Positions 33,888-61,357 of a stretch of DNA of 64,000 nucleotides are shown here, in pieces. Below the pieces are notes generated by a model that saw only the letters and a list, made by a program, of their open reading frames with translations, had not been told where the DNA came from and searched no databases. Made by a program: the position numbers and the translations under genes. The number at the start of each line of letters is the position of its first letter. Positions within the stretch are counted from its first letter, which is position 1. The stretch covers positions 1 through 64,000 of the forward strand of contig JBFLGF010000200.1 of NCBI GenBank assembly GCA_050230475.1, written 5' to 3'. This DNA comes from Ancylonema sp. (taxonomy: Eukaryota).

Positions 33888-35487
33888 ATGGAGGACCCCG
33901 TGACGTTGCTCGCAGAAGGCCTCCAGCTTTATGCGGAATTGACAGACGAGGATATCGATTACATCGAATTTCAACTCGGACAAGGATGGAATCCTGACAT
34001 GGCAGGTCTGCCCCTCGTCCCGGGTCGAGACGCAGAACCCGCCGACGTCTCGATCGTCGAGGGACAGCAGTGGACAGATACGGAGACAAACGCGACGGAA
34101 GAGGCTGTCGCAGAAGGCAGTGGTCGGGGATCTGGGTCGACCGGAGGCGCCGTGGACGCTTGGATACTACAGCAGAGGGTGGAAGTGGACCGGTTCATGG
34201 AGTGGATCAAGAGAGAGGCGATTCGGTCGGGTGTCGCTCTCGCATCTTTCTCCGACTTCCGTTAGGTGAGACGGAGTGGGCGTAGGAGCTCAAAAGAGGA
34301 GCTCAGGCATCATGGATCCTTGTCCTGCCGTTCACAACCGTGATGTTGCTATCGCAATGACCTCTTCAGCACCTTCTCGGGGACACCGAGGCGGTGGACG
34401 CGCAATGCTCGTCTATCCTGGGGATGGCCGGGGTCGACAGTGTGCAGGAGGTGCGAATTGGGGTCTACCCCTTTTTCGACCACGCAACCTGGAAGTTTGT
34501 CCAGGTGGATTTCTAGACCGAGGCCGTGATCCTGTGGGGATGGGAGGACGTGAACCACGTGCGGAATGAAATTGTGAGTTGAGCCTTGGACACTTCGTAC
34601 ACTCAAGGCCCCTGACTCTTCTTTCCCCCCTCGCAGGTATCCTTTTTGGAAAACGCGTCTCACCTCGGTGACACCGCAGGTCGTGTCTCCAGTACCCCGA
34701 TCTTCAACTTTTCCCGTGCCCCCTTGTCTGGAGACACAGGGGACCAGGGATTTAGCTGGATGCTCACGATATGTTGAATCTGAGCCCACGGGCCGATGGA
34801 GTTCGCAGTAAGAGTCCTGCTCCACGTCACCTAACCCCCCTAGGAGAAAAACACACTCATCTGACACACTTATCCGATCTACAGCCAGAAGAATTGGGGA
34901 GCATTGCGGAGTCCGTCGGGACGCGGGTAACGGAGGACAGGGAGAGTCAATTCCTGGCCGCCATCGATTCTTCGTGCACTGACAAGGTGGATCTTCCACC
35001 CATGCCAGGTACCAACACCTATTCTGACACAATCCTTGATGGTACGGACAGAACGTAAACGACGCAATCCGTGCAATGCGATCTACAATGTTCGGTCAAG
35101 TGCAATACCAGGGAGCTGCCTACTATACTGTCAGCTCCTACCTGTACACAATGGTGAGTGGCTGGCGCTACAGCATCATTATTTTTTCCACAGGTGGCAG
35201 GGTTTGGTACCGCAGATGCGTTGGTGCTGTGGAGTTCGGTCCGGGAAGACATCAGAGCAGCAGGATGTAGAGTGGTATAACCCCTTACTGGTACGCACTG
35301 CATCTCTCAAAATCAGTGACTACTGGTTGTGCACACAGGTGTGGATCCCCATGAACGATGAAGGTCATTGGAGACTCCTCCGCATCAACCTGGATGCGGG
35401 AATTGTGATGACCTACGACCCTATGTGGCCTACAAACAGACTTGAAGAGGAGCCACCTAATTTCGCCTTCCTAAAGAACGTACTGGC
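33888..35487 (+). pseudogene. Ulp1/C48 (SUMO protease)-like gene, degenerate, interrupted by a copia element
   Basis: VWIPMNDEGHWRLLRINLDAGIVMTYDPM matches the C48 His/Asp region. An upstream degenerate segment GVYPFFDHATWKFVQVDF*TEAVILW looks similar. Several stops and frameshifts. Confidence 0.65.
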
Positions 35488-38444: not shown

Positions 38445-40845
38445 TGTGGACGCCATTGTGACGTCCACTCAACTCAACTCTTTACACTTGAGTAATACCC
38501 AACTCAAACTCAGAACTCAACTCTTACTCAGATTGCGCTCAACACAAACGCAGACTCAGACTCATTCACATACACATTAAACTCATTCACATATGGCGCA
38601 GCTCATAGACAAAGCTTCTTTCATATACAAGCAAGTAAAAAAACAACACCGGAGAAGAATTGTACCTATACCCATTGTATGAAAATCTCAATCAACTAGC
38701 CAAAAGTAAGACCTTTGTCATCAAGTTGACATCTCATGACTACTGACCCTAGATTAACCGAACGAGTAAATCTAATTCGTCAACTATTGATTTATTGCGC
38801 GCCGAGCCAATAACGCGACTACTGCATTTCACTGACACACGTCACTTTTCTACCGATACAACTAATCATTCTAAACAAGAGCGAAAAACAACACGTTCAT
38901 TATTCTAAATATTCCCAAAGACAAAACGTCACTTCAAGTCATAGACGCGAATAACCAAAAACACGAAAAACAAACCAAAAACCAAAAGCGTCAAAGAACC
39001 GCGCACTATTACGGCAACAACTTTGGTCGAACTAATTAACACATCATAATATACAAATATGTTGCAGAAAATACTCCACATTCCCCCTCCCTGCAACATC
39101 CATCGACACATTTTACCCACTTTTCTATCATCCCCACCAATCCCTTGCAGACTTTTAGAACTCCTACTCCAACATTTTTGTAACATGTCTGCTGCATTCA
39201 ATCCCGGTCGACCTTCCCTAATTCAATAAGACTTTTCAACCCTGTCCCTGAGTGAATGATACTTGATTCTGATTGCTTAGACCTCTGATGAAAGACTGGA
39301 TTCATCGCCAATTTAAGTGGAGACTCATTATCACCTAGCAACAGAACTTTTTCTGTGCCAATTCTCATTTCCCCCTGGAGCTGTTGCAAATAGATGGCCT
39401 CATTCCCTGCCTCACTCAGTCCCACATACTCTGACTCACAACTGCTATGAGTAACAACTATCATCATCGATGACCTCCAGATCACTGCTGCACTAGCACT
39501 CATAAACACGTAACCATTTCTGCCCCTGGATGTCTCTCTGTCTCCAGCATGTCCAGCATCAGAATACCCCCACACCCCCACCTGCGCACCTCTCTTATAA
39601 AGCAACCCCTCTCCAGCTGTACCATTCACGTACCTCAGTACACGTTTTACCCCCTCCCAATGTGCTATTCCAGGGTTCTGACTAAACTTGCTAAGTTCAG
39701 ACACTGATGCTGACAAGTCTGGTCGAGTACAAGTTGCGAGATCCATCAAACTCCCAATTGCAGACCTGTAAGGCACATTCACCATTTCACTCCTCTCCTC
39801 ATCGGTGACTGGTTGCTGAGAGATGTCCAGATGAGTTCCCAGCTCCATTGGTGTCGACACTGTCTTGCTCCCCTCCATGCGCGCTGAAACGTTTGACGAC
39901 ATCTCCTGCATACTTCTCTTGCACCAGAAGCACATCGCCATTCGCCCGCCTTCGAATCTCTATACCCACCAAGAATCTAGCCTCCCCAAGATCTTTCATT
40001 TTGAATTCTGTATTCGCTGACGTGTTGTCTGCGTTCAGCACTACGGCTATCTCAACCGGCTCAAGTTCTGTTCCGTTCACTATCTCAAGACTGTCTTCTG
40101 CGTCCAAGACAGCGGTGAGATTTGTGCGCCATGGCCCATACGTAATTGAATCTTTCAGCACTGTTTTCTTTGTGTACTCTGATGATCCAGAGCCTGATGC
40201 TCTGATGGACGCCATTGTGACGTCCACTCAACTCAACTCTTTACACTTGAGTAATACCCAACTCAAACTCAGAACTCAACTCTGACTCAGATTGCGCTCC
40301 ACACAAACTCAGACTCAGACTCATTCACATACTCATTGAACTCATTCACATATGGCGCAGCTCATAGACAAAGCTTCTTTCATATAAAAGCAAGTAAAAA
40401 ACAACACCGGAGATGAATTGTACCTATACCCATTGTATGAGAAAAAAATCTCAATCAACTAGCCAAAAGTAAGACCTTGTGTCATCAAGTTGACAATATC
40501 TCCAAATGACTAAGACCCTAGATTAAAACGAGATCTAATTCGTCAATATTGATTGAGTTATTGCGCGCCGAGCCAACACTACTGCACATTTCACTGACAC
40601 ACGTCATAACTTTTCTACCGATACAACTAATATTCTAAACAAGAGCGAAAAACAACACGTGTCGTTATTCTAAATATACCCAAAGACAAAACGTCACTTC
40701 AAGTCATAGACGCGAATAACCAAAAACACGAAAAACAAACCAAAAACCAAAAGCGTCAAAGAACCGCGCACTATTACGGCGGCAACTTTGGTCGAACTAA
40801 TTAACACATCATCATATACAAATATGTTGCAGAAAATACTCCACA
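38445..40845 (-). mobile_element. Ty1/copia element B nested in the 3' LTR of A; LTRs 38445-39080 and ~40206-40845; internally deleted (gag N-terminus fused to RT/RNaseH)
   Basis: LTR termini TGTGGA...TCCACA; PPT GGGAGGGGGAA; RT FKMKDLGEARFLVGIEI and PYRSAIGSLMDLATCTRPDL; RNaseH GYSDAGHAGD..SSCESEY..GDNES; PBS remnant TCAGAGC. Confidence 0.92.
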
Positions 40846-41606
40846 GTCTACCCCCACTCCACCCACCCACCGAGACGCGCGTACAATTTTGTTCTGGGAA
40901 TGCGAGGACTCCGACGACCAGTGCACCATTGTCGTCCTCCTCCGAGGAGGTAAGCAAATGTCACCAGCCTGGCAGCGGTGTATTCCCTGGCAGCGGTGTA
41001 GTCCTCGCATGTTTCGAGAAATGTTGTCATTGTCGCGCGGGGCTGGGCTCCACAAATACCCAAATGGAAAAATATAGAACTATGTGTGTGGAAAACGAAT
41101 GGCTGCGCTGGAATGGTGGAATGCAGTGGACGTACAATGTAGGGTGTACGGAGGGGAGGTGTGGTGGGGGGGGGGGGGGGGGGATGGGGTAGGAATTTTG
41201 CAGGCCCGCCTTCCGTTTGCCCAGGTGGGATTAGTGGCTGCAGTTGGGATTTTTCGGCGGGCTTGTCTCCGATCCCACCCATGCACCCAAAAAACACCCC
41301 CACCACCTTACTCCCCACTATGTTGTCTACCAGAGGTGTGGCCAATATTTTGGCGACCTCCTTGCAGCGTCCTTGCTTGAATGTAGTCATGTATTTCTGT
41401 AACCCAGAACAAATCACTTTAGTTACTCCTCACCGGGGCTTACGTCACATAAGTTACGAGGTATACACCTCGCCCAAACTCAATTTCTGATTCCTGAGGA
41501 TGCAATCCAGGGTCCTCAGGATCCACGCACCCGTCTGTTTGATAGACGTGATTATATTGGGGTATAATCCATATATGTGGCACCACTCCATGGCTTCTGG
41601 GGCCAG
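40846..41606 (-). pseudogene. Inverted continuation of the Ulp1-like gene
   Basis: Starts with TSD CTGGC and continues the 35036-35487 frame: (KNV)LAPEAMEWCHIYGLYPNIITSIKQTGAWILRTLDCILRNQKLSLGE. Confidence 0.7.
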
Positions 41607-42107
41607 TGAAGAGTCCATCTTGATATGGAACTCTTATGCGTGAATCCTATCTCGAACAAGTGCCCATACACTCCTCATTCACAACGCATTCAGATCGATG
41701 TGAGATGAGTTGCTAGTTCGATCAATTACCGCTCCAAGGTCTGAAAGTCAGACCTTGAACAATGTTTCGCACAAACACACTAGCGAGCCACACTACTCGC
41801 TACGTGCCCACGTCTACTTTATGATACAATGCGAATCTAAATGCACATGCAAATTAACAACGTATATGTAAGCACCAATCAAGCACACAGCGATAGCCAA
41901 CCAATAGGTGCTTCGACGGACTAAGAGACTCGCGGCCGCAACTCACATGACCAATACGAATCCGGCATTTAACTGACACATGTCCGATATGCATGACAAA
42001 TACGTACTCAATCCAGCTAACGGCTGACGGCTGGATTGACCGATCGACCCAAATAACTCGACCAAATTATGTCGGGCTTATTAATCCCCGTATCCGTATC
42101 TAATAAC
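41607..42107 (-). repeat. Remainder of the copia A 3' LTR, inverted
   Basis: Reverse complement matches 35568-36062 and ends ...ACTCTTCA followed by TSD CTGGC. Confidence 0.9.
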
Positions 42108-42112
42108 TTAAC

Positions 42113-42744
42113 TGGAGTATTTTCTGCAACATATTTGTATATTAATGATGTGTTAATCAGTTCGGCCAAAGTTGCCGTAATAGTGCGCGGTTCTTTGACG
42201 CTTTTGGTTTTGGGTTTGTTTTTCGTGTTTTTGGTTATTCGTGTCTATGACTTGAAGTGACGTTTTGTCTTTGGGAATATTTAGAATAATGACACGTGTT
42301 GTTTTTCGCACTTGTTTAGAATGATTAGTTGTATCGGTATAAAAGTTATGAGTGTGTCAGTGAAATGTGTCAGTAGTCGCGTTATTGGCGGCGCGCAATA
42401 ACTCAATCAAGTTGACGAAAGTTTCTCGGTTAATCTAGGGTCGATTTGGAGATAATGTCAACTTGATGACAAGACAAGGTCTTACTTTTGGCTAGTTGAT
42501 TGAGATTTTCTCATACAATGGGTATAGGTACAATTCTTCTCCGGTGTTGTTTTCACTTGCTTTTATATGAAAGAAGCTTTGTCTATGAGCTGCGCCATAT
42601 GTGAATGAGTTTAATGAGTATGTGAATGAGTCTGAGTCTGAGTTTGAGTTGAGCGCAATCTGAGTAAGAGTTGAGTTTGAGTTTGGTTGGGTATTACTCA
42701 AGTGTAAAGAGTTGAGTTGAGTGGACGTCACAATGGCGTCCACA
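42113..42744 (+). repeat. Third LTR-B copy, in opposite orientation to the other two
   Basis: Reverse complement of 38445-39078. Confidence 0.92.
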
Positions 42745-44359
42745 GTCAGCATTAGTCGACTCGTGACCCTCGGACTTGTCCCTATGTGTTGACCTATCCG
42801 ACTTCTTTTTTGGGTGGCTGCAGTGCTCACCAGAAGAGTGTCAAGCGAATGATGACTTGCACTCTCGAGCGATCGAGGAAAATAAGTTTGCGGTTGGTTG
42901 GATACATGTGAGAATTTTGGTCTTATGGTGGCAATGGTTCCTCTTTTTCTTTTGACTTCTTTGGATTCTTTGCTCTTTTCTGGAAAAGTACTTCACCTCT
43001 TGTGTATGCATCCTACATCCAACCCACCTCCCATCCTCCCATGTTGTTGTTGTGTCATCCCCTTCAGACACACCCCGACTTTGAGCATTTCATGTCCAAC
43101 ATCGACATACACACGTCGGTGAAAATACAGGTGTGTAACGGGTCCGCATTAGGCAGTAAAGTCGCCTTGTAGTGATTGGTAAATTTGATATGATATTGGG
43201 AAGCGTGGATTTACAGAGAGACACGGCAGAGTCTGTGGCCATCGTCTTGGCGCCCAAAAAGGGAGATACCCCGAAAGGGTGAGCAACAATGCCCCTCCCT
43301 ACCTCGTCCCCGGTATTCTTGATTATCCAATGTAGCAGAATGGAAATAGAAGCCATGCTGACAATAAACCTTGCACTGGCGGTGGGAGGAGGGGAGGGAG
43401 AGGCTAGGAGATCAAGTGTGGCGAGTAGACTCCGGACACAGGGATAGAGGTTCAAAATGGGGACGCCATAGGGGAAGGTGGTAGTGGGGAGCTGTCCCCC
43501 AAGAAGAAGAGGAGTAGAAAATAATGGTGTGGACACATGTGTGTGTGGTGTCCATGTGGCAATTTAGAGTGCTACCATCTGCGTAAGCATGATTTATAGT
43601 GAACAGTGCACTACTTACATAGAGAGGAGGATGCACTAACCATCATAATTGTGACGATGATGGTGAACATTTGAATGACTCTAATCGAAGATTGATCATA
43701 GTGTCTGGGTCAGATGTATCAAGAATCTTATTGAAGTTTGACTTTCTTGTTCTCGGTCCAAAGCCAAAATGAAGATGTGTATTGATGCTTACTATACCGA
43801 ATTGTTGCTTACTCTCCACGGTATGCAAACAATTATATATGGGATGAGATTATTTTGGTCACAGAATTATGAAACCCACTTGCGCAGTGTCTGAATATAA
43901 AAAACATCACGCATCCTTCGCGAGATTTGAGATATCGCGCTATAAACGAGAAGACAAATGACATACCGCGATCTTCAAGAGTAATTCAGATATCGCGCGT
44001 AGTGGTGGTCAACACTAGATGAGGAAGTATTATTTTCATAACATGAAGAAGCTTATTATGTAATACTTAATGCGAAAGAGAAAGACTGAAAAAATATAGA
44101 TAGAACGCAATTTACATTTCACACCTCGAAAATTACTATGAAAGTGCAAAAACACCCATGGACATGAAGTTATGATCAAGGTCTCGACATTGCTAAATCA
44201 AGTCTACTGTCTGGTGGACGTCGATACTGCCCAAGGGTTGGGACTGCTTTTGGGATCGGGCTACTTAACCATACAGACTTCCTAACACACGGACCTTCCA
44301 CACCATACCATGAACCGCATAAAAAATATTTCCTCTACCTCCTCCTCCTCCGCCGAGTT

Positions 44360-47134
44360 CTACACGTCCTCTACCAACACCCCCTCTACCCCCAAGTTCT
44401 CTTCCTCCCACTCTTCCAGCCCGACATCCTCCACATCCTCGCCTTCACCACCATCTCCGATCCCCCTGGGACTCCCACGGTGACCCATTTTGGGCAGGCA
44501 CTCGAGCATCAACGACTCGAGCTGCTGCATCGGACCGGCTCTATCACTTTCAGGGTAGGATGACTCGTCGAATAAGATGGGCCATTCATCCAAAACCGAT
44601 ACAGCGTAAGGAAGAGACGTGGCCTCGGTGGCATCATCCAGTGCGATCTGTTCCGCATAATCCAGGGGTCGCCCGACTTGTAAGGCCCACACCCGTTTGC
44701 AATCCCCGACTGCCATATGGTCCACCCTGTCCATCGAGGTGTACCACTTGGCCATCTCCAACTTCCTCACAAAGCGGCGTCTTGACAAGTCGATGCGTTT
44801 GTAAACACTGCAAATAAGGGTGGGATAAGAGGACACACTGTACGTAAGATCACCCATACAAAGTCAAGGAGAAGGTGACTCGAGTCGTATTGGCTAGAGT
44901 GTATGTTCCCACCTTGTCCACACTCTCCTGTACGACTCCAGATCCGCCTCCTCTCTCGATCCCACACCGACAACGCAGTCACCACTTGCGTCTGGTCCAG
45001 TCAAGTGGATGGGCATTGAGTTCATATCGGACCACACACACAAAAGACACATGCAAAACCAATTGTTGGGCTGTGAGGCGAAGTTATGTGTAGAGGATTA
45101 AGCAAGATATGCAATAACCATACCAGATGACTCTCGTTCTCGATGGTACTCTTCGAGTATGTTCACAGTCTTGCGTAAGATGTCGGGGTTGAATCTCATG
45201 ACTAGAAAGCCCTGTTCACGTGCTTCTCTATTGGCATCGCTATTTCTGGCCAATCGCGACAGGGATTTCACACGGACTCGAGTGTGGGTCTTGTTCACCA
45301 CCACCAATTGAGCAAAAAATGCATCGGTTGCAGCCTTCGAATGACCACCCCCCCTTCCCTCTTTCTCCGGGTCTTCCTCACGCAGACAAGGTGGCACCAA
45401 ATCTGCCTCTCCCGCGTTCTCAATCAGGCGTTCCCTCCACCCTGCTCTCCTGCACTCGTCATCCACACTTGCCCTCACTCTACGTGCGGCCACCACTGCT
45501 GGGTCTGCTTCCACCACGACTGCAATATCCGGGGGAAGCTTGGGGAGGTGAGGAATGGCCCTTTCTTGCGCCTTCTCCGCCATCTCCTCGTTCGACCCAG
45601 CCCGACGCGCACTAAAGGGAACATATTGAGGAAGGCGGGCTATCCGGGCCACAAGATTCAGGGTTGCCACCAAAAACACCCTCCTCCTCTCCAAATAAAA
45701 CCGCGTTGTTGTCGAAAAGGAGGTTCCCGAGGGGACCAATGTACGACTCCATCGTGACACGTGTTAGATTAGTGTGTCCGAGAGCACGCGCTAAGGACTG
45801 ATAGTGGTAGGCTTTCGGTACCCCGCCACTCTAGGACGTGAGGTTGACAAGGGCTTGGCCGGCCGCGCCTGACCTAAAGCTGCGCATGCCAAATTTGATG
45901 ACCGCATCCTCCGACATCCCGAGTTGATGAAGTAGGTCTCGCAACTGACGAGACTTCACATCCGGGGGGAACCTACAATAGGGTAGATGGGTAGTGTGTG
46001 AGATGTAGGTGTGCAGGTAGGAGGAGGAGCAAGAAGGGGGGGGGGGGAAGAGGGCTAATTAGGGCAATGAAGAAGAGACTCCACAGAAAAATGTATGCAC
46101 CTCCTCCCACCCAACTCACCGTCTTCTGGGGTGAGAGTACTCCTCCCTCCACAGCTGGAAAAACAAAATAATCAAGGCACTCCGGCTTCACCACAAACCT
46201 TTGCTTTCGACACGCTTCTGGCAATTCCAGGTCTAGTACCCCCATCTTCACCGCCAAGGCAACGAGAGTGCGAACCAAGCACAATTCCCGGACCTCGAAC
46301 TCCTTCAATTTTACAGATCTCCCCTTTCCCCCCAACGCAGCCGCGAAACCCACCGACTTACTATCTGGAACAACCACCACCACCTCCACATGTCGATTTT
46401 CCTCCTCATCAACATGGGCCTGGAAAGTAACATGTCGCCACTTCAGCGCTTGATACGAGTTGGGGCGGCATAGGCAGGTAAAGCCGGTCAACATCACCGC
46501 ACGAAGTACCAGGTCCGATACACTCATGGGGTCCAACAATTGAACCATTGTACGAACAGCCATTGCGGGAAGAGGGGTTTGTCGATGACACCTGTCAGCC
46601 CCAAGGGCCCTGAAACAATCAAAGACATTTGAAGGGAGGTTGATCCATTGAGCTCCAGGTTTACAAGAGCGCTTTGTGAGGGTGTTAAGGATCTCACGGT
46701 GCAATACTTTTCATCACCAGTGATGACTCCCGTCTGAGAACCGACACGTCACCACTGCCAACAAACTTTCCCTCCTCCACCATCGACCATTCCTTCTCCT
46801 CAACGAATGATAACAGGTTGTAAGACAAAACGCGCATATATGTGAAGCTATGACCACGAGGCCCCATAGCGAATCCAAGTGGATCAGTGTGAGGGTCCTT
46901 CCCCACAGAGGGTATGGCCAACCACCATAAGAAGTACTTTAACGTCTTTGGTGTGACGGGGAAGTCTTGGTCACTCCACAGGCCATCATCCATCCCATAC
47001 GGACCTAAAAAGGACACACGATCTTCCTGTCTGGCAACCCTCATCATGTGATTAAAGACTATCCACTTCCGAGTTGCACGGCCCTGCAGATCGGCCTTCT
47101 TCAACACGGCATTATCCATCACTTTTTTTTTCTC
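44360..47134 (-). pseudogene. Tyrosine recombinase YR-2 (Crypton/DUF3435-like) with long C-terminal extension; spliced, with stops and frameshifts
   Basis: LRAVMLTGFTCLCRPNSYQALKWRHV (R at ~46466), VPDSKS (K), CLVRTLVALA, intron ~46119-45973, then LRDLLHQLGMSEDAVIKFGMRSFRSGAA (R), RALGHTN (H), TMESY (Y at 45741-45743). Confidence 0.85.
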
Positions 47135-47187
47135 CTAACAAAAAGAAATAGGTCGACGCGCGGAATTACACAACCATTATACACAAT

Positions 47188-50100
47188 TTATGCCACAGGA
47201 CATTTTTGTGCACACACAAAATTGCAGGTCAACCAACATGCACCCATCTTGCCATGTTCTAGCATACATGTAACATGAAATGCGGTTGCACCCCCACCCT
47301 GGCCCACCTCATCATCCATAGAGGTTAACAAGGACGTGAGTTCCTCTTGCAACAATTCCTTGAGCGAATTGACAAAGTCGCTCGACTTGGTTCTTCTCTT
47401 GACGACCTCCAATTCTGAAGCACACTTCTTGAAATACGCTTGCATCCGCACCCAATCACCGTGTGCCTCTAAATCAACAAGGGGGGACTCCGATGACCTG
47501 TACCGCTGCAACTGTGCGATGGCGAACGACAGTTCCCTATGCACAACAGCGTGTGATCGATGTTCGCCCATTTGAACATCGGACATCGTGAGAGTAGGTA
47601 TCGATGGAGGCACATCTGGGAATAAAAACAAGGACAACATTGAGAACATGAGCAAATAGAGGGAGGAAAGAGGAGGAAGGGATAAATACGGTTAGCGCTA
47701 ACAATTAAACAGTTGTGTTCGATGGGAAACAGGAGTGGAAAGGAAGTCACCTATGTGCTTTGCCACAGTTGGAACAACCTCGACACCTTGGCGCCATGAC
47801 ATTGCCCACACCCCCTTCCCCTCTCTCCCGTACACCATCTGATAACCAGCACTCGAAGGAGCAACTCTTCCGCCTCCCACCCTCAGTATCCTCGACAATC
47901 AGATCCAGGTCCACACCCTCCACACACATATCATCGACTTGAGCATCTGCTGGGGGGTGGGTGAAGATTGGGTGATGGTCCAGTAGAACTGAAGACTCCG
48001 CACCACGGGAGCAGTACTGATATCGTCACCGCACCCCGCCAGCAACTTTATTTGTGGAACATGGGTGTTCTGACCCACGAACCATCTCGCATATTTCCGG
48101 GCCACGGTCTGTCTCGCATTGCACAGGCTGCAAGGCACAGGTTCTCAACCTATTGGACATCAGAAACAATCACACTTCCTTCACATGAGAGGGAAGAGAA
48201 CATACTTATGCACAGCCTTAGAGCGGGCTGCCTTCGTGTGAGGGACTCCCCCTTCATTGTTTTTGTAATTATTTGCTGGCCCTTCTAGCTCCTGGATAGT
48301 CTTCACCCACTTGTGGTATGCGGGGAGAACTTTAGAACCCTCTATATCAGCACGTCCCTCCTGTTCTTGCTCCCATGGTAGAATAATAGTGAAGAAGTGC
48401 TCAGGTGTTTCATCTGCATATAGCAACGCAATCAAATGAACAGTTAAAATTGGCAAAAAAGACAGGTTGCATTCAACCCGAACCCACCCAAGTATTACCT
48501 GAGAGTTTACTTATAACTTCATCCAACGCTTTTCTCAAGAAAGAATCCTTTTGATTCTGGGTGTCCCGTGCACACAACTCCTCCTCCGCAGTAGCCGACT
48601 TTTACGGATAACAGCGTACCGTCAGGTCTAAAGACTCCGCAGCACGGATTCTCTGCTCTGATCTGTCGACAAGAACCTTTCTGTTCTGTTCCTTAAAAAC
48701 CTGCCCAATCTGGACACGAAGCACACTGGGCACATTTCCACGGCCCCGTTTGAGGCCCGGTTTGGTAGGAGGCCCCGGAAGGAACAATCCTCCGGACTGG
48801 GCAGGAGTCAATACACCGGGTCCTCCCAGCACACCTTCAGACAGGATCTTCTCACCACCAAGCGTGACCAACCCCTCTACCCCAGTAACCTGGTTGGACA
48901 CATCCCCCCCTTGCCCCACACCATCCGGGGTGACTTCCATGCATATCTTGTGGGGTCGACACCCACTAACTCCAACCTTCTCTTCAATGCGCAGGAGAGA
49001 TAATAAATATTCAGCTACAAGCGAAAGAAAGGGGAGGAAAATGAACAAGCTTGGTTACCATTAAGTTCCCATTAAAATGTTTTTCTTCAAAATAAAAAAC
49101 CGGCTGATCGGAGAAGAGAACTTCGTCACAATCACGAGGGCATAAAAGCATCTCCAAGCAGCCGACCTTAACACTGCAGTCTTTTTCGAATACATCTTGA
49201 CGACGACCGATTTGAAGCACTTGCTCAACTAAGCAAATCTGTGAAGAGAAGATGGGAATTAAAAAGGTGGGAAATAAATGCCAACTTCTACCACATTGAA
49301 TTCAGCTTAAAGAACTCAAGCAGAAAAAACATAGCGGCATTGCTTGATACACAACCACATCTCTTGTCGCATACAAAATCAGACCTGCGGGTGTGACCGA
49401 CGCCCAATTTGACAGAGGTGGGTGGAACCCATGTTGGAGGAGTTTTTGAAAGGACGGATGGCCACATTAATAGCAGTCCCCCCATCCAACATAGTGACGT
49501 CTTTCCAAGTAATGTTGATGATTTCTTTTGAACGAGGACCACACACGAATGAAAGTATGAAGAGAATGGAATCTCGGAGATCAACATCGATACAAAGGTC
49601 GAGTGAATTTAATAATGGAATTAAAACATCCAGCAAGAGTGACTTCTGTGTCTTGAAGGGGCGAAGCACCCCAGATGCTCTATTCCAATGCCTCTTGGAT
49701 ATCTCCATCACCTCACGCAAGCGTCCGATACGGGCTTCGGGTGGGCCTTCGCCCCCAACCACATCGGGACGAACAATGGCCCATGCAAGGAGGGCCCATA
49801 AACACTGTGAATAATGTGGAATGGGGGTGGAGAGGGAGGGGGTCGGGGGGGGGGGGTTATTTCATACAATTGTCTCCACTAATGTGACAGAAGGGACACA
49901 GTTCTCACCTTGATAGACGTATTGTATGACAAGCCAAGTTGCTCCCGTAGGTGTCCCAAGTATATGAAGATGACGTCAGGATCGATGGCAGTCAACGATT
50001 TCCCGGACATCTCCAAAAATTGACAATAGGAGAAAAATGGCGCTAGTCCATCACGCAAAAAAATAACTGTGCAGGGGATAAACAATGTCATTAATTTATA

Positions 50101-50606
50101 TCCGGTACCATACACATATTTGGGGCAAACTACTCTGCTCACCCTTATTCCGGGTTTTAATGACGTCAGAAGCGCCAATGGTAGCATCTAAAAATCGACG
50201 CAGATCCGGCAGATTCTCTGTCGCCCCCCCCTGTCTACCAACATCAGTTAACAACTTCACTGCATCGCCCTTCCAGTCCTTGGCCCTGCTAAAACGACGG
50301 CCACTTCGTTTCGAGCACGTCGGGTGTGGCTAGCAACAATAAGGAATAGAAAAAAGAAGGAAATTAAAAAAAAGTAACAAAATACGCAGGCTCGCATAAA
50401 ATCCTTTCAATAACCGAACAAGGATCAAAACAATTTCAGGGGCGAAAACCAACCAAAACAAGCACAGCCTCCGAATGGGGGGGCAAGTTCTCATCTCCAT
50501 CGACTGGCAAGCCAGAAGAGGCGGTACACAAGTTATGACCGACATTCGTCGGCAGCTCCCCCAACGGGTTGCGCAACTGAAGGGGGCGGGGGGGGCCAGT
50601 AGTCAT
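47188..50606 (-). pseudogene. Tyrosine recombinase YR-1 with core-binding domain and C-terminal extension; spliced, degenerate (start tentative)
   Basis: Integrase N-domain-like FFSYCQFLEMSGKSLTAIDPDVIFIYLGHLREQLGLSYNT; box I LRDSILFILSFVCGPRSKEIINITWKDV (R at ~49533); RPFKN; ICLVEQVL; RRLELVGVDPTRYAWKSPR. Catalytic H/W and Y not recognisable after a frameshift. Confidence 0.78.
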
Positions 50607-50952
50607 GATCTCACATCTGCACACAATCCATCCAGATCCAGGGTTGGGATACAACGAGTAAAACAAGTACAGTGCGAGTTGAACACGTACCCAACGTCTA
50701 CAACATCGGGAATACCGGTTGGTATTGTGGACTCGGTGGTTGCAGGCATAGAATTCGGCAACAAAACAATACGACCTTCAAAAAAAAGGAGAAAACGTGT
50801 CGCAACAATCGGATGAGAAACAATATGTCCTACAGGATTCCCAGATTCGTGTGCTATCAACCACAATAATGTAACTAGAAAAAGGAACGGTCAATAACAA
50901 CACATCATTTTTTGGTGCTTGAGTTACAGCAGCCAAGAGGGTATACGGTTCA

Positions 50953-52017
50953 TAATCGCCTAAATCCTCTGGTACACAGGCTGGTACTTGTGGTCCATCT
51001 GCAAATATATTTATCGTATAAATACAATGAGAAAAATCTAGCAAGGCAAAACGAGATTCATGGATCTTTTTGGTAAGTCGGACCATTCCTGAACACGGTA
51101 GGAGGGGTAACATACCATGATTCTCCGGTGACACAGGTGAAGGAGGGACTGTGAGTGCCTTCACCGATTGGATAGGTCGATTCGGTAATGAGTGAGGCCA
51201 ATTCAGGGAGTGAAGACCGATAATAAGGCGGAGGAAATTAATACCATCGTAAGTGGAACAAAACAAATCGTATTTCTTCCGTTTTATGGAATCACGTTAC
51301 AAATCCGAGGCCGGATAATGTAGGTATTGATTACTAGTATAATGGACCAGCACAATACAAACAGTTTATAACTCGTTGGAAGACAGACAACGAGGCATTC
51401 GAGCTCCAAATAATTTAGTAGTTTGCTGTAATACATACCTGCCTCTCATTTTATTGAATCTCGTTAGATGTCCGAGGCCGGATTATATACGTACTGGTTA
51501 CTTGCATACTAAACCAGTGTCATACCATGGTGTGTCCCGGACAGAGAATGTCGCAAACCGGCGATAGGCCACCACAAGTCCGACAAGCTACGGAATGCAG
51601 ATTTCTAAAAATATGGGAATCAAAGCTGTAACGGGAACGCAGATCGAAGGAGGTATACACCAGGAAAGGGTGGTCATGCTAGCCTAAGAGGACACTAACA
51701 GGGAGAATCCTGGCATTAATTCTTCCGAGGAATCTGCATGTTTTGACAAATTTGCGAGCAATGAATCTTGGCGACGACTGACACTATTTGGTGCGCTGGA
51801 CAAGGAATACACGGCACGTAGGACCATACAACGAATACATTATAACACGGTAAATGTGATATGTACACGATACAACGTCTGGACACATGGACGTCGACGT
51901 CAACAGACGTACCCGTACATTGGCAGGTCGTCAAATAAAATAATAATACATCATTCTGAACCGGTTAATTTAAAACTTGGAAATAAACCGACAATATTCC
52001 GACAATATTCCCATATA
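50953..52017. repeat. ~1.05 kb non-coding repeat forming the right end of the insertion
   Basis: Collinear similarity to 62205-63251; similarity stops at CCCATAT, about 8 nt before the junction. Confidence 0.85.
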
Positions 52018-52694
52018 TGGAGTGGATGTTGCACCTCTCTGCAGCTGCAACGTGTTACACGAAGTTGGCAACTGTGGCAGGATTGGCCCGTTCCCGCTGG
52101 ATACCCATTGAACAGAAAGAAAATTGACTGCCCGCAACTTTTGAGCCAAAAGTCACCCTTGAGATGGGTCCCACCGGAAGTATTGAACAGCCATTATGGT
52201 AGCTGGACATGCAGCTGTTTAATCAGGCTGGAAGAGCTGGATACTGAGGATGGAAATGGGGATAAGGGCTGTGGCTTTGGCGAACCCGACAAGATTTGCA
52301 TATCAAATCCGTGGCTTCGGATAACCGTGCAAAACATGATGGACAAAACCTGGGGCGCAGAATAAATCGGACTCCTAAACTCTAAACCTCCGACAGAAAA
52401 CACCTCCAAGTGCTCCAAATCTGTCCGAAATCCTGCGCGTTCCGCAATCGTGTCCGCAGCTGCAGAAGGGTAGCTAGTGCAGATTTCAGAGAGCAGTCAG
52501 GCAACTAACTTTAGAGTCAACCTTGCCACTTGTCTCATGGTCAGTTTACACACGGTCGCCCGAGGATCAAGTCGCGTGCCTGTTAGCGCCAGCAACGGAT
52601 AGCAAACGAAAGACAGAGCACTCTGTTGTCCTTGAGGCAGCTGAAGAGACAGCGATTGCGAGCATCTTGTCGCTGTCGTGACTTCGGAGAGACT

Positions 52695-55600
52695 ATGGGG
52701 CTCCCCGAGCGTCGTGCGCATGACGCCCTGGCCACCCTGGACGACTTGTTAGTTTTGCACATTCTACAGCGCATTTGCAATGGCCAGGATTTGGCTTCTC
52801 TTTCCCGTGCTAACAGACGCCTACGCTGTCTAGTAGCTCGTGTCAATCATCTCTCGTTTGAGCATAGATCCTGTCATGGTGCTCTATCTCCGCTCTCCTT
52901 TCAGAGTCTTGTGAAGAGTATGGTGAAGAGGACAGTGAGGCTGGAATATCTCTCCGTGCAATTTGATGCGCGAGGGCCTAGCTCGGCATTTTTCTTGGAT
53001 GGGACAGGTGCGTGACCTTAACGTTAAGAATGAAGTCGAGAAATCAGGACTTCGTGAGATGAAATGTCATTATCAGTCACCAAAGATTGGACAATCTTGT
53101 GAATCAATTCACCAGTCATCTATTGTGGACATTTTGTGGTTCGAGTCTATTTTCTTAGACTGTGTCTGGGTTGCTGCCTTTAGTGTTGCCAATGAAAAGG
53201 ATGCAAAGCGAACTATTTTGTGGAGTCGGCAATGATTCGGAGGCGCAGGTTGCCTAATCTGCTCAGTAACTGTGGAAATGCAGAGGTGGGGATAGAAAAA
53301 CTGCACACTCTAGCGACAAGTGGGCGATCGGATCGAACACAGCCTTGCTTTAATGGCCCTCTGGTCGACATTCTTCAGTGCCCGCACCTACAGCTTCTAG
53401 AGGTCTGCTCCATATCTGGATAATTACTGTTTTTGTCGCAAGGACCGCTGGGATGTCACTTCAGATAGTTGATAGCAGGACTCTTTCCAGCCCTGCCTGG
53501 GGTGATCAAATGGCACAGGGCTGAGTCTGGCAAAGCTGCGGTTCATCTGTGTTGACAATCGCCATTTTTACGTGGTATCAGGAAGTGACACCTGTCGTTT
53601 CGATCTCCTTGCAGCTACACGTGTTCGATCTGTCTTCTATCACCAAATTGCCTTGTCCACCACCTGCATTTTTTTTTTGATAGCAGATGCATTAAGTCAT
53701 GTAATTTCTGCTGATGACAACGTTTCACTTGCAGCTTCATAGTCTATGGCTGTCCTCAGCGCCTCTAGTAGGCCCCAAGCTTTCCTGTTTGAGGACTCTC
53801 CATCTCTCGCAAGTAGAGCTCTGCGATGACTCCCTTGAAGACATCCTCTCGCTCTGCCCCAACCTCCAGGTCAGCATGTCAACCCTATCTCCCGAATCAC
53901 CCACGCTACCCCTTCTTTTCCGAGGCCGAGTCAAAGGTACAATGGAAGATGACGTGAAAACTAAAGTAAAGCAAAACCGAGAACTTTTGAAGAAAATTAC
54001 GTAATCACGAGAACGGTTGCGATGCATGATTCAGGGTCCTGCTTACGACAAACACATTGCTGACGCATGTCTGTGGGGTGGTATGTGAGCAGACGCTGAA
54101 TCTGGAAGCAGTCACTGGGTTGGATTTCCCGCACATTTGTGGTGCCAGTCTTTGTGACCTCTCCGTGGTCCTGCCTACTCTCGCTGACGGGCTCTATGTC
54201 ACTGCGCCACAGCTGAAGCGCCTCTGCGTCAGGTATGTCGACAGCTCCATCTTCGAAGTACATCATCGGCAGCCTGCTCCACGTTGAGCAGCAACAGGCG
54301 TGCACATGCCATGCTGTGGTTCATCATGTATAGAGCCGTTTTGTATATCTCAAAATAAGGTAATGAAGCACAAAAAACGGAAAGAAGTCAACAAAATCAA
54401 ATAAAGCGGAAGAGAGTGGCCATGGCAGGGGCATGAGATGCAGTCATTGAAGGGGGAGTGTTAGACAATGTAGAAATGAAAGAAATGTAGAAAAATGAGG
54501 GCGACTTTTGAAACCAGAATTTGTTGCTGCTGGCGCTGAGACTTGATGTTTGTGCCCTGCAGTGGTGTGGCTGAGATAGAGTTGATCGAGGCCGCCGATT
54601 TGGAGATTCTCCACGTGAGAAGTCACTTGGAGGATCTGCGAGGATCTTTGTCTCTTGTGGAAGAGGTTCGGTTGGACGGCTCTGATTGGCTGTGGGAGTC
54701 AGTGGAGGCTGTGCTGTCGCCCATAGAGAGCCTGCGCCGTCTCATGCTCGATGTCAGGTCGGTGTCTTGGACCATCCATGACTCATGGGGGGAGTGGAAG
54801 TGGTGGAAGGGGTCAATTTCTTGGAACAAACTGGTCTTTGAAGACGGATTTGTGTGGGACCCACCCCTCTCTTGCATTCTCTTTTAACCAACTGATCAGG
54901 GGAGGTTGTAGAGAAAGAGGCAGTGGTTTCTTTTCGGGAGTCGATCCATGGATGGGCTAAGTGATGGGTCGGAGTGTATCAAGAACGAGTTTTCATCCTC
55001 TCTTTCTCGCTCCTCCAGGTTGAGAGATGGAGCGAAGCTGGAGCTGCAGAGCCTGAGTGACAGCTGTCAGCGAGCACAGGAGCTGGTGCTCACAGCTTCC
55101 TTCCTGCAACAAGTGCAGGTAGAGTGGGGGGATTGAAGTATCTCTTGTCCTCCGTGCCCCGGTCTTAAGCGGAACCCCCTCCTGATCAGTGGACACAGCG
55201 CCAAACTATTCTCAGTTTCCGTCTTTCTGTCACCGGATTACTCTGTCACCAGAACATTCCAATATTCGGTCAATAGATATGTGCGTCAAACAGTCGTCCC
55301 ACCCTTTTGTACCCTCTCTGCACTCGGGCTCCAGGAGCAGTGCTGGCAGTGCAGTGTCGTGAAACTACGATTCAATACAAGGTCACAAGAATCATCCACG
55401 CTTCACTTTCTTCATTTCCTTACTCTCCTGTACTCCACGACAAAAAAAGGGTGCCAAAAAAAAGGGTTTTTGCTGTCGTCTGAGAGGGCAACCAGACTGG
55501 GACCGCTCCACTTCTCAGAATGTAAAACATGCTTTGCATCCACTCGCTACCTGTCCATCCATGGTTCATCCGCCCTCTGTTAGCCCTAGATGTCGCATTC

Positions 55601-56330
55601 CACAAACTTAACACCTGCCTCTTGTCCCGTTGACCGATTGACTTATTGACTTATTGACTCATTGACTCATTGACTCATTGACTTATTGACTCATTGACTC
55701 AGTGACTTATTGACTCATTGACTCATTGACTTATTGACTGATGGACTTAGTGACTTATTGACTCATTGACTCATTGACTTATTGACTTATTGACCTATTG
55801 TTTTATGCAGAGTGAGTTCGAGGAGGTGTCGAGCTGCATGGAGGTGTCCATGGGGTCTCTCCTGTTGTCAGAGTACGAGGAGGATGAGGCGCCTGTGATG
55901 AGGCATCTGAAAGAACTCACTCTCACTTGGGATTCCAGCAGCGCAGCCACTTGGGATGTACTGATTCAGCTGCTCAATAAGGCCCCAAATCTGGCCTCCG
56001 TCCAGGTACAGCTCGCCTCAGAGGATGTGAGGCGCTGCGTGTGTCGTTTATTTTTTATTATTGGAGGAGGAATGGAGTGAAGCCATTCACTTGCTGGCGG
56101 TTTCAGTGGGGATGGAGAGAGTGGGCAAAAGATGCGGTAGATGACTGCATTTTGTGTCGTCTCAGTAGACAGAATGGTGGATGACCCTAACTTTTTTTAA
56201 ATGGCTGCAGGTGGTTGCCCTGCAGAGGTCCCTAGGACCTGATGTGGACGCAGGAGGTCTGGCAGCGATTCTCTCAGAGTTATGCTCCGGACAAGGCCTC
56301 AAATGGTCTCTACACGTCGTTCAGATATGA
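52695..56330 (+). CDS. F-box/LRR (FBD-like) protein, copy 2, apparently intact, ~8 exons
   Basis: Same exons as copy 1 with no stop in exon 4; extra 3' exons 55811-56025 (MRHLKELTLTW..LIQLLNKAPNLASV) and 56211-56330. Confidence 0.8.
55635..55800. repeat. 7-mer tandem repeat (ATTGACY)n, intronic
   Basis: Direct reading. Confidence 0.9.
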
Positions 56331-57363
56331 ACGCAACCATGATGACATGATGATGTATACTTATGATGATATTTACTTATGATATGACATAAACTTATGA
56401 TGATGTATATATATATACATACATCCAGAAAACATTGTTATGAAGGGTAGCAAATAGGCGTGGCGTTTTGGTAGTTTTGTCTCTAAAAGGGTCCCTGAAA
56501 TTGGGGTGAATAATCAATTACTTACAGTAGGTATCAGAGTGCTCATGATAAGGGTACCAGTTGATTCAAAGGGGGTAGGAAAAAGGCATATGTATATATA
56601 GATATATGTACATGAGGTGTTATTTATATTAATTATTAGACTACCCTAGAAGCGCCCTGGGTGATTGTTCAAGCACCATGACCCTCACTATCTTCTGGCG
56701 CTTGATCCTGTGGCTGGTATATCGGACCTTCATCTATATGCGGAAAGCAAGAGAACGCGTCACAATCTGCATTGGATATCATGTGCTTTAACAGACAACC
56801 TAGTGCCGACTACACGTATGAAAGCAGCGTTTATTGTCGAAGTTGCATGAAACAGAGACACAGTTTTTACTTGCTTAGATGCGCTGATTGCTTATGTTTT
56901 CTAGCTAGGGCAGGCACTTGCTATTTCTGGCGGTCACAGTCACAGAAGTGTGCATGTGGTTGATAAGGATGTGGATAAAATACAGTAGACTCCTGGGAAT
57001 GTGTAGAAAGTTGAAACTGATCCTAAAACGGATCCAGACACATTTTATACAGACACTCTGCCTCGATCAATTGATTATGAAGATTTTGTTGCTGGGAGGT
57101 ATTGATTTCGCATGTGGCTAGCCCTAATAGCGCTCACAATTACATACCGAGTCAAAAGGACACTACTCTTTAGCAAGCTGTTAGGTGCTGAGAAAAAAAT
57201 CCACACCTCATATCAGCACCACATACAGCAAACATCGAACGTACATCATTTGTCATTACGGGAAAGGGAAGACATCACTCCCTTTCCGTGCACAGATAAT
57301 GGCAGAATAGAAACGGAATGTGGGTCTCATCGCTGGTTGGTTTTCGGACACTTCGAGGAGCGG

Positions 57364-59174
<1,811 letters not shown>

Positions 59175-59502
59175 TCAAACACTCTGTTTCATTTTATTAC
59201 GAAGATAAATTTCGTCATCAGCAGACACACTCAGCAATATCAATTTCGCACATGGCTAGCTCTAATAGCTCTCACAATTGCGTGCTGAGTTACAAAAGGG
59301 CACTAATATTCAGCATGCTGATAAGTGCTAAGAAAATATCCACACCTCGTACCAGCACCACATAAAGCAAACGTCGAACATACATCATTTATCATTACAG
59401 AACAGGAAAGATATCACTCCTTCCCTGCGCACAGGTGATGGCAGTAAAGAAACGGAATGTGGGTCTCATCGCTGATTGGTTTTCGGACACCTCCGGAAGC
59501 GG

Positions 59503-61357
<1,855 letters not shown>

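What the first reader, a model, noticed from the sequence alone, without database searches (positions are those of the whole stretch)
44360..50606. Two divergent tyrosine recombinase domains in tandem, possibly spliced into one dual-YR protein
Seen: YR-1 (LLNSLDLCIDVDLRDSILFILSFVCGPRSKEIINITWKDVT...CLVEQVL..VKVGCLEMLLCP) and YR-2 (MVQLLDPMSVSDLVLRAVMLTGFTCLCRPNSYQALKWRHVT...CLVRTLV..VKPECLDYFVFP) are collinear distant paralogs on the same strand. A phase-0 donor (GAG|GTGGGC at 47307) and a strong acceptor (TTTCTTTTTGTTAG at 47135) would join them in frame (...SMDDE-EKKKVMDN...). Known: paired YRs occur in bacteria (XerC/XerD, Tn554 TnpA/TnpB), while Cryptons and Starships typically have one. 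Inference: a heteromeric or covalently linked recombinase, perhaps with one non-catalytic partner.
Basis: partly seen in the sequence, partly recalled or inferred. Interest (0 to 1): 0.85.

Follow-up and report, generated by a model that had tools for sequence, protein, structure and literature searches.

The report
Decayed transposon with two recombinase genes
A mutation-damaged copy of a many-copy mobile DNA family in a eukaryote from glacier and ice samples carries two very different tyrosine-recombinase genes one behind the other, which likely act together as one cut-and-rejoin enzyme; that layout is known from bacteria, and my literature searches found no eukaryotic transposon described with it.

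Summary
The quoted donor (47307) and acceptor (47135) exist and join in frame. That junction, however, links the first two exons of the downstream gene (YR-2). It does not link YR-1 to YR-2.

YR-2 belongs to a small, very divergent family: 14 relatives among 1.84 billion representative proteins, and no Pfam hit. A relative's model matches type IB topoisomerases and Cre/Xer recombinases (Z 9.2 to 6.4). YR-1 has a canonical arginine box (Pfam Phage_integrase, E 5e-5 in a relative, below cut-off). Profile comparison links the two only weakly (E 2.4e-4).

The copy is broken. YR-2 has a private TAG stop and a frameshift. YR-1 changes frame at a G7 run, and no tyrosine nucleophile is visible.

DNA runs show that the whole 8.4 kb is repeated. 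No reverse transcriptase is present, so this is a Crypton-like element.

Best reading (0.45): one element with two recombinase subunits. Rivals: two separate Cryptons lying head to tail (0.3), or one fused protein (0.2). For the fused reading, an in-frame intron path exists with only two stops. No RNA data could be obtained.

The parts
49909..50329 (-). YR-1 upstream exons. Exon 0 runs ...50329-50143 (donor AAGG|gtgagc, phase 1). Exon 1 runs 50066-49909 (FLRDGLAPFFSYCQFLEMSGKSL...NTSIK), likely the N-terminal core-binding-type domain.
   Evidence: and phases checked by joined translation without stops. The domain assignment is inference from position only.
49385..49804 (-). YR-1 exon 2 (140 aa). 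It holds the Arg box ...SFVCGPRSKEIINITWKDVT... and the Lys strand ...IRPFKNSS...
   Evidence: Pfam Phage_integrase E 0.019. Relative P0002 (71% identical) gives E 5.1e-5, 23.5 bits against cut-off 27.1. The only PDB sequence hit is XerH, E 1.4, aligned on the Arg box. 15 of 29 residues are identical to the Arg box of a true bacterial integrase. Language-model neighbours carry DUF3435, DUF3504, Phage_integrase and ResT-TelK_cat.
49059..49238 (-). YR-1 exon 3 (ICLVEQVL...VKVGCLEMLLCP...NGNLM), joined to exon 2 in phase 0.
   Evidence: Best non-self hit of the YR-2 family profile in the six-frame ORFs of the window, E 0.21, profile positions 126-185.
48605..49014 (-). YR-1 exon 4. Residues 49014-48880 continue exon 3 in phase 0 and read ...LELVGVDPTRYAWKSPRMVWGKGG..., a box II of K-x-x-R type, up to a stop at 48877-48879. 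After the G7 run at 48904-48910 the only long open frame is shifted by one base and runs 48903-48605 (Gly/Pro-rich, no Tyr). A TAA follows at 48602-48604.
   Evidence: The one-base loss in the G run is inference. Box II is read by eye, with no profile support (0 families for 48880-49014).
47836..48601 (-). Stretch between the two recombinase parts. Candidate exons are 48601-48499, 48413-48206 and 48149-47836, whose GT-AG sites keep one frame, with a TGA at 48026-48028. 20-nt direct repeats lie at 48628-48647 and 47989-48008. The 639 nt between them (48004-48642) is missing in some copies.
   Evidence: The joint 48003>48643 appears in one contig each of runs X1 and X2 (table 5). Codon-position GC of 48025-47837 is coding-like at 0.63/0.43/0.56. 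Whether this stretch is coding is inferred.
47308..47615 (-). YR-2 first coding exon. ATG at 47584-47586 (MSDVQMGEH...SMDDE), preceded by a strong acceptor at 47616-47617. Donor GAG|gtgggc at 47307.
46707..47134 (-). YR-2 exon 2 (EKKKVMDN...KYFLWWLAIPSVG...SLVMK), the N-terminal domain. Phase-2 donor AAAAG|gtattg.
   Evidence: In relative P0006 this part runs on uninterrupted into the Arg-box part, which supports the splice.
46120..46609 (-). YR-2 exon 3, the first half of the catalytic domain: Arg box ...GFTCLCRPNSYQALKWRHVT... and Lys strand ...VVPDSKSVG...
   Evidence: 14 relatives in 1.84 billion representatives. AlphaFold model of relative P0006 with alignment A3: residues about 145-280 mostly pLDDT 70-95. 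VIA-align: variola topoisomerase IB Z 9.2, Cre 8.1, human topoisomerase I 8.0, QRICH1 7.7, XerH 7.2, XerD 6.8. All 22 rows that cover this half are topoisomerase IB or tyrosine-recombinase folds. Foldseek's top rows are Cre, E 0.02-0.09.
45098..45972 (-). YR-2 exon 4. Box II ...GMRSFRSGAAG..., then ...ARALGHTNLTRVTMESYIG... (His and the likely Tyr nucleophile), then a C-terminal extension of about 170 aa to TAA at 45098-45100. Lesions in this copy: TAG at 45831-45833, a one-base frameshift near 45657, and a one-base phase mismatch at the acceptor beside the C6 run 45965-45970.
   Evidence: Read with TAG=X. 3 of 3 relatives (P0018-P0020) have Gln at the stop and continue into the window's other frame. 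table 4 lists a 1-nt difference at 45657. The residue roles are read from motif order and spacing (inference).
44363..44863 (-). Downstream open frame of 167 aa with a coding-like GC pattern. No family found, and its link to YR-2 is not established.
42745..52025 (.). Likely extent of the repeated DNA that holds both genes. The left side abuts a hugely abundant repeat that ends at 42744. The right side ends where a paralogous unit shows an uninterrupted junction. The last 1.06 kb (50952 to about 52015) has a second copy at 62205 to about 63260, so the true right end may be about 50951 instead.
   Evidence: Self-BLAST, junction alignment, end alignments, read cover. The termini are not determined.

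Best explanation
This stretch is a mutation-damaged copy of a repeated, Crypton-like DNA element whose minus strand carries two very divergent tyrosine-recombinase genes in tandem, which are likely two subunits of one recombinase and not two domains of one spliced protein.

Shown:
- Both genes exist, each split by short GT-AG introns.
- YR-2's family has the topoisomerase IB / tyrosine-recombinase catalytic fold, and in intact relatives an unbroken box II-His-Tyr tail.
- YR-1 has a canonical Arg box.
- The whole 8.4 kb is multi-copy.
- No reverse transcriptase or other transposase domain is present.
- This copy is dead.

Inferred: the element would move as Cryptons are thought to, by recombinase-made excision to a circle and re-insertion at a short shared sequence. 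YR-2 would supply the tyrosine that cuts DNA. YR-1 keeps Arg, Lys and K-x-x-R but shows no tyrosine. It would act as the second, DNA-binding or site-selecting half of a mixed tetramer. Comparable cases are XerC with XerD, Tn554 TnpA with TnpB, and a Flp-type active site completed in trans by the partner's tyrosine.
For: Gene anatomy: exon junctions keep frame. Relative P0006 runs uninterrupted across the YR-2 exon 2/3 junction.

YR-2 fold: one search gives Z 9.2 to 6.4 to topoisomerase IB, Cre, QRICH1, XerH and XerD, and 22 of 22 rows on that half are this fold. In one search the top Foldseek rows are Cre.

YR-2 tail: it is intact in 3 of 3 relatives.

YR-1 Arg box.

Faint kinship between the two.

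Multi-copy: four DNA runs from four studies cover all 30 bins. Up to 12 different contigs lie over one position in X1 and 11 in X2, at 85-100% identity. Depth is of one order across both genes in every run: in X1, 853-3492 in 27 of the 28 bins from 42791 on.

Linkage: some copies carry a 639-nt deletion that joins YR-1's 3' part to the DNA in front of YR-2. YR-1's open frame then reaches 47750, about 160 nt from YR-2's ATG.

No RT, RNase H or DDE domain in 42.7-52 kb.

Both genes carry similar loads of disabling changes.
Against: - No contig or other locus shows both genes together. Relatives lie on contigs of 544-2142 nt, and no listed read piece spans the gap.
- Depth of contigs is not copy number (tool's own warning). 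The two bins between the genes (47738-48319) are the lowest, or among the lowest, in each run.
- Each half is about the size of an ordinary Crypton.
- Termini and target repeats were not found.
- YR-1's fold could not be modelled (pLDDT 49.6). Its missing tyrosine may be decay of this copy.
- No binding or expression evidence exists.
Confidence: 0.45

Rival explanations
1. These are two unrelated Crypton-like elements, each with one recombinase gene, lying head to tail by chance or because one integrated at the end of the other. One spans about 48.0-51/52 kb with YR-1, the other about 42.7-47.9 kb with YR-2. There is no functional partnership.
For: Each half has the size usual for Cryptons. 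The two proteins are almost unrelated in sequence. Read depth dips between them at 47738-48319. Head-to-tail Crypton arrays were reported for other genomes by earlier agents of this scan (unchecked leads). No locus with both genes was found elsewhere.
Against: Depth is similar over both halves in all four runs. There is no repeated end sequence at a putative inner junction. Open, coding-like frame continues from YR-1 to within about 160 nt of YR-2's ATG in the deletion form. YR-1 shows no tyrosine of its own in this copy.
Confidence: 0.3
2. One gene, one protein. Further introns link YR-1's last exons to the exon at 47615-47308, giving a covalently fused dual-recombinase protein of more than 1300 aa.
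For: With GT-AG introns of 85, 56, 220, 173 and 97 nt, the window reads as 768 codons from 49054 to 46120 with only two stops: TAA 48602-48604 and TGA 48026-28. With the 639-nt in-frame deletion seen in runs X1 and X2, 602 codons are fully open. The exon that holds YR-2's ATG is preceded by a strong pyrimidine-rich acceptor in the phase of the upstream donor at 47836. The copy is known to carry private stops elsewhere.
Against: GT and AG sites are plentiful, and I chose among them by eye. Each phase match has a chance of about one in three. Two stops and a frameshift must be blamed on decay without proof. An ATG opens the YR-2 exon. The deletion form is a minority (joint depth 170.5 against 850-1760 around it in X1). 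No RNA.
Confidence: 0.2
3. These are host genes or domesticated recombinase relics, not a mobile element.
For: Domesticated Crypton recombinases exist (Kojima and Jurka 2011, PMC3212892, passages read). QRICH1 and Ndc10 are among the structural matches.
Against: Many diverged copies exist in four runs. This copy is riddled with stops and frameshifts. It sits in a 20.7-kb block of inserted repeats that is absent from the paralogous unit.
Confidence: 0.03

Closest known systems
Crypton DNA transposons (Goodwin et al. 2003, recalled; Kojima and Jurka 2011, PMC3212892, passages read)
   Same: Eukaryotic, multi-copy, and encoding a tyrosine recombinase in an intron-bearing gene. No reverse transcriptase and no long terminal repeats. 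Structural neighbours include the Crypton-derived QRICH1 (DUF3504) and Ndc10.
   Different: Two very divergent recombinase genes in tandem in place of one. No Pfam match for YR-2. Box II reads R/K-x-x-R, as in type IB topoisomerases, and not H-x-x-R. No GCR1_C domain was found. The unit is at least 8.4 kb. Ends and target repeats are not defined.
Bacterial multi-recombinase systems: XerC/XerD, Tn554 TnpA/TnpB, recombinase-in-trio (RIT) elements (Smyshlyaev et al. 2021, PMC8138268, passages read; details of Tn554 and Xer recalled)
   Same: Two or three divergent tyrosine recombinases encoded side by side on one strand and working as a mixed complex.
   Different: Those are prokaryotic operons without introns. 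No sequence kinship to them was tested or seen here. Partnership is inferred here, not shown.
Flp of the yeast 2-micron plasmid (recalled)
   Same: A eukaryotic tyrosine recombinase whose active site is completed by a tyrosine from the neighbouring protomer. It is the model for how a tyrosine-less YR-1 could still take part in cutting.
   Different: Flp is a homotetramer of one protein. It was only a weak structural match (Foldseek E 0.31).
DIRS/Ngaro retrotransposons and fungal Starships
   Same: Eukaryotic elements that use tyrosine recombinases. DUF3435 clusters are among the language-model neighbours.
   Different: No reverse transcriptase or RNase H, so not DIRS/Ngaro. No Pfam DUF3435 hit and no cargo shown, so not a Starship. 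Each of those carries one recombinase.

Membership tests
Tyrosine recombinase / topoisomerase IB catalytic fold (YR-2) | Catalytic-domain fold | tested here: met
   Model of relative P0006 (51% identical to the window's exon 3), residues 138-282: Z 9.2 (rmsd 2.9, 103 aligned) to variola topoisomerase IB, 8.1 to Cre, 7.2 to XerH, 6.8 to XerD. 22 of 22 rows on this half are this fold. Only the first half of the domain was modelled.
Tyrosine recombinase (YR-2) | Match to Pfam PF00589 Phage_integrase | tested here: not met
   0 of 12 YR-2 family sequences scanned gave a hit, at thresholds of E 1 to 10. PDB sequence profiles A1 and A4 found no recombinase.
Tyrosine recombinase (YR-2) | Catalytic residues Arg, Lys, His/x-x-Arg, His/Trp, Tyr in order | tested here: inconclusive
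   RPNS, PDSKS, RSFRSGAAG and LGH(T/S)xLTRVTxxSY are conserved in family alignments A1 and A4. Arg-to-His spacing is 33 and His-to-Tyr 11, against about 23 and 9 in Cre and XerD (recalled). No residue-level alignment to a solved enzyme was made.
Tyrosine recombinase (YR-1) | Match to Pfam PF00589 | tested here: inconclusive
   Window exon: E 0.019, 15.2 bits. Relative P0002: E 5.1e-5, 23.5 bits. Both are under the 27.1-bit cut-off and cover only profile positions 18-59, the Arg box.
Tyrosine recombinase (YR-1) | Catalytic-domain fold | tested here: inconclusive
   AlphaFold model of exon 2 from 2 sequences: mean pLDDT 49.6. The search gave only helical chance matches, best Z 5.1.
Tyrosine recombinase (YR-1) | Tyrosine nucleophile about 30-45 residues after box II | tested here: inconclusive
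   No Tyr in the 130 residues of the only long open frame after K-S-P-R. The copy is frameshifted at that point, and other copies could not be read.
Crypton | Tyrosine recombinase as the only mobility enzyme; no RT, RNase H or DDE transposase | tested here: met
   Pfam scans of ORFs across 42.7-52 kb on both strands found none.
Crypton | Dispersed repeated copies | tested here: met
   Contigs at 85-100% identity cover all 30 bins in 4 of 4 runs. Up to 12 variant contigs lie over one position. Metagenomes may mix strains.
Crypton | Defined ends with short direct repeats at the crossover site | tested here: inconclusive
   A paralogous uninterrupted junction places the right end of the inserted block near 52025, with TGT on both flanks. 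No terminal repeats were found. The left end is masked by a copia nest.
Crypton | One recombinase gene per element | tested here: not met
   Two genes lie about 0.2-1 kb apart, if they are one element.
DIRS / Ngaro | Reverse transcriptase and RNase H beside the recombinase | tested here: not met
   No RVT or RNase H hit in 42.7-52 kb. The only RVT_2 hit (39802-40227) belongs to copia fragments outside it.
Bacterial paired/trio recombinase elements (Tn554, RIT) | Tandem same-strand divergent recombinases | tested here: met
   Layout only. Homology to TnpA/TnpB/Rit proteins was not tested, so this is an analogy, not membership.
Starship | DUF3435 captain at one end of a large cargo-bearing element | tested here: not met
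   No Pfam DUF3435 hit. Only language-model neighbours carry it. Cargo was not examined.

The most novel reading that the evidence does not exclude
A new class of eukaryotic DNA transposon whose transposase is a two-part tyrosine recombinase. YR-2 is a catalytic subunit with a topoisomerase-IB-like R-x-x-R box. YR-1 is a tyrosine-less partner whose active site is completed in trans. The two are made either as separate proteins or as one fused chain of more than 1300 aa. This would be the eukaryotic counterpart of XerC/XerD or Tn554 TnpA/TnpB.
Probability: 0.3. Interest if true: 0.8.

Novelty: new variant of a known kind. Interest (0 to 1): 0.55.

Why it matters
Eukaryotic tyrosine-recombinase transposons (Cryptons, DIRS, Starships) are each described with a single recombinase, and their mechanism is still largely inferred.

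A family that needs two different recombinase subunits would show that the division of labour known from bacterial Xer, Tn554 and RIT systems also arose in eukaryotic mobile DNA. It would also give a natural test of trans-completed active sites, and a possible source of asymmetric, site-directed recombinases.

If the rival holds and these are two ordinary Cryptons side by side, the find is only two new, very divergent Crypton lineages from a little-studied cold-habitat eukaryote.

Tried and rejected
RNA evidence: no RNA holder was listed. As a result the state of the stops and frameshifts in other copies, and any splice junction, could not be checked.

YR-1 structure: the model is too poor (pLDDT 49.6) and its search uninformative.

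Sequence searches that found no recombinase for YR-2: Pfam and PDB profiles.

Searches for other loci:
- JGI metagenome contigs gave one spurious hit on a GC-rich bacterial contig.
- Viral contigs gave none for YR-1. The YR-2 alignment was too loose to scan with.
- Prokaryote genome contigs gave none for YR-2. For YR-1 they gave only a bacterial integrase that shares the Arg box. It was picked by pattern, so its E value of 8e-7 overstates the case.

No whole genome is held. There are no tRNA or Rfam matches in the window, and no earlier notes on this genome or look-alikes.

Terminal inverted or direct repeats were not found.

An intron exactly between the 20-nt repeats was rejected: GT...AG there gives 647 nt and runs into a stop.

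Literature: five searches and passages of four papers gave no eukaryotic transposon with two tyrosine recombinases. Subscription journals and Repbase entries are not covered.

Complex prediction was not used. Only half-domain fragments could be sent, and any two recombinases might pass by likeness to solved tetramers.
Full report
WHAT IS THERE

The window is eukaryotic DNA. It has short GT-AG introns, host genes for Vps36, a DnaJ/zuotin protein, NCA2 and a plant-type F-box LRR, and copia fragments. No whole genome is held. Near-identical DNA occurs in runs labelled glacier or ice metagenome and in runs of one coded organism. Seven rows from four studies hold part of it, and none is RNA.

YR-2 (DOWNSTREAM GENE)

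Exons, located:
- 47615/ATG 47586 to 47308
- 47134 to 46707
- 46609 to 46120
- 45972 to 45101

The join is in frame.

A search of 1.84 billion representative proteins found only 14 relatives. A word-based search found one. None of 12 family sequences scanned hits Pfam, and PDB sequence profiles find no recombinase.

Relative P0006 runs uninterrupted from the N-terminal domain into the Arg box, which supports the exon 2/3 splice. Its AlphaFold model is confident over residues about 145-280. That part matches:
- variola topoisomerase IB, Z 9.2
- Cre, 8.1
- human topoisomerase I, 8.0
- QRICH1, 7.7
- XerH, 7.2
- XerD, 6.8

All 22 rows that cover it are this fold. Foldseek's top rows are Cre but weak, E 0.02-0.09.

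The last exon, read with X at its stop, has three relatives. All have Gln where the window has TAG, and all carry ...G[ML]RS[FL]RSGAAG...LGH[TS]xLTRVTxxSYIG.... They then continue into what is another frame in the window.

This copy therefore has a private nonsense change at 45831-45833 and a one-base frameshift near 45657. There is also a one-base phase problem at the exon 3/4 acceptor, beside a C6 run.

The roles of the residues (Arg, Lys, R-x-x-R, His, Tyr) are read from order and spacing. That is inference.

YR-1 (UPSTREAM GENE)

Exons 50066-49909, 49804-49385 and 49238-49059 join in phase.

Exon 2 holds ...CGPRSKEIINITWKDVT... and ...IRPFKNSS.... Evidence that this is a recombinase Arg box:
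- Pfam Phage_integrase scores E 0.019 here, and E 5.1e-5 (23.5 bits, cut-off 27.1) in the one relative found, P0002.
- The only PDB sequence hit is XerH, E 1.4, on the Arg box.
- A true bacterial integrase shares 15 of 29 residues there. It was picked by pattern, so its E value is inflated.
- Language-model neighbours of both genes carry DUF3435, DUF3504, Phage_integrase or NDC10_II. These are leads only.

The model of exon 2 was too poor to use.

Exon 4 starts at 49014 in the phase of exon 3 and reads ...VGVDPTRYAWKSPRMVWGKGG..., a K-x-x-R box II. This frame stops at 48877. After a G7 run (48904-48910) the only long open frame is shifted by one base. It is Gly/Pro-rich and has no tyrosine for 130 residues.

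I infer a one-base loss in this copy. Whether intact YR-1 has a tyrosine is open.

ARE THE TWO RELATED?

Only faintly:
- BLASTP E 0.04
- Joined exons: z 1.2 local, z 2.7 collinear
- Profile-profile E 2.4e-4, probability 43%
- YR-2 profile against YR-1 exon 3: E 0.21, the best non-self hit in the window

They are two old lineages of the same enzyme class.

BETWEEN THE GENES

In the window as it stands, the frame from 49054 to 47836 has 12 stops. Two observations complicate this.

First, canonical GT-AG introns of 85, 56 and 220 nt link 48499>48413, 48206>48149 and 47836>47615 in phase. The whole path from 49054 to 46120 is then 768 codons with two stops, TAA 48602-48604 and TGA 48026-48028.

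Second, 20-nt direct repeats at 48628-48647 and 47989-48008 bound a 639-nt piece. One contig each of runs X1 and X2 lacks this piece. The deletion is in frame and removes both stops, leaving 602 open codons.

Codon-position GC of 48025-47837 looks coding.

A fused protein is therefore possible. But I chose the splice sites by eye, each phase match has about a one-in-three chance, and an ATG opens the YR-2 exon.

A MOBILE ELEMENT

Four DNA runs cover every bin of 42500-51200 with short contigs at 85-100% identity. Up to 12 variant contigs lie over one position. Depth is of one order over both genes, with a dip at 47738-48319. At 40 listed positions nearly all contigs differ from the window. The tool warns that such depth is not copy number.

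The stretch 42745-50951 is unique within the window. It lies in a 20.7-kb block (31332-52025) that interrupts a duplicated host segment. The paralogous copy is uninterrupted at 20769/20771. The block also holds nested copia pieces and a Ulp1 peptidase ORF.

No reverse transcriptase, RNase H or DDE domain lies in 42.7-52 kb. This fits a Crypton-like DNA element. The ends were not defined.

READING

Most likely (0.45) this is one element with two recombinase subunits: YR-2 catalytic, and YR-1 an accessory or trans-completed partner.

Rivals:
- Two separate Cryptons head to tail (0.3)
- One fused protein (0.2)
- Host relics (0.03)

LITERATURE

Five searches and passages of Kojima and Jurka 2011, Smyshlyaev et al. 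2021, Gluck-Thaler and Vogan 2024 and Craig 2023 gave no eukaryotic transposon with two tyrosine recombinases. Bacterial RIT and Tn554 systems are the nearest layout. Goodwin et al. 2003, and the details of Flp, Xer and Tn554, are recalled and were not read.

Noticed in passing
window 31332-52025, compared with 20769-20771: A 20.7-kb block of repeats (Ulp1 ORF, nested copia pieces, the recombinase element) interrupts one copy of a duplicated host segment. The other copy is uninterrupted at the same point, with TGT on both flanks of the block.
   Followed up: partly
window 34931-35521 (+): An ORF with a Ulp1/C48 peptidase domain (E 8e-5) ends just before the copia nest. Kojima and Jurka 2011 note that some CryptonS and CryptonF elements carry such a peptidase, so it might belong to the same element, split by the copia insertions.
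   Followed up: no
window 16582-20769 = 27144-31331; 12066-14902 = 24296-27141; 20771-24292 ~ 52026-55519: Segmental duplicates of very unequal age: 100% identity over 4188 nt, 98.6% over 2846 nt, but only 84-91% for the third part. This points to recent conversion or duplication, or an assembly artefact.
   Followed up: no
window 42113-42744 (-), 38445-39078 (+), 40202-40843 (+): A 630-nt repeat with summed contig depth about a thousand times that of its surroundings in all four runs (1.55 million against 1-3 thousand in X1). It ends sharply at 42744. It is probably part of a copia LTR together with 35567-36057 / 41605-42108.
   Followed up: no
window 50952-52015 and 62205-63260: A 1.06-kb repeat (87% identical) forms the right end of the inserted block and occurs again 11 kb away without recombinase genes. 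It is either the terminal part of the element or a separate small repeat.
   Followed up: partly
window 44363-44863 (-): An open frame of 167 aa downstream of YR-2 with a coding-like codon-position GC pattern (0.60/0.41/0.64). No family match, and no in-phase splice from YR-2 was found.
   Followed up: partly
window 49856 joined to 43385 (run X1, table 5c): One low-depth contig (27.3) joins 49856 back to 43385 with 12 other letters between. This is a rearranged or head-to-tail copy. The breakpoint lies in a C-rich intron, so it may be an assembly artefact.
   Followed up: no
window 7600-7850, 15180-15320, 55640-55810: Long octamer microsatellites, (TCCATGTG)n/(TCTATGTG)n, (TCCACTCA)n and (TTGACTCA)n, recur across the window.
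   Followed up: no
window 57105-59171 and 59243-61357: A tandem duplication of a unit of about 2.1 kb (85-92% identical) with no Pfam match in its ORFs.
   Followed up: no
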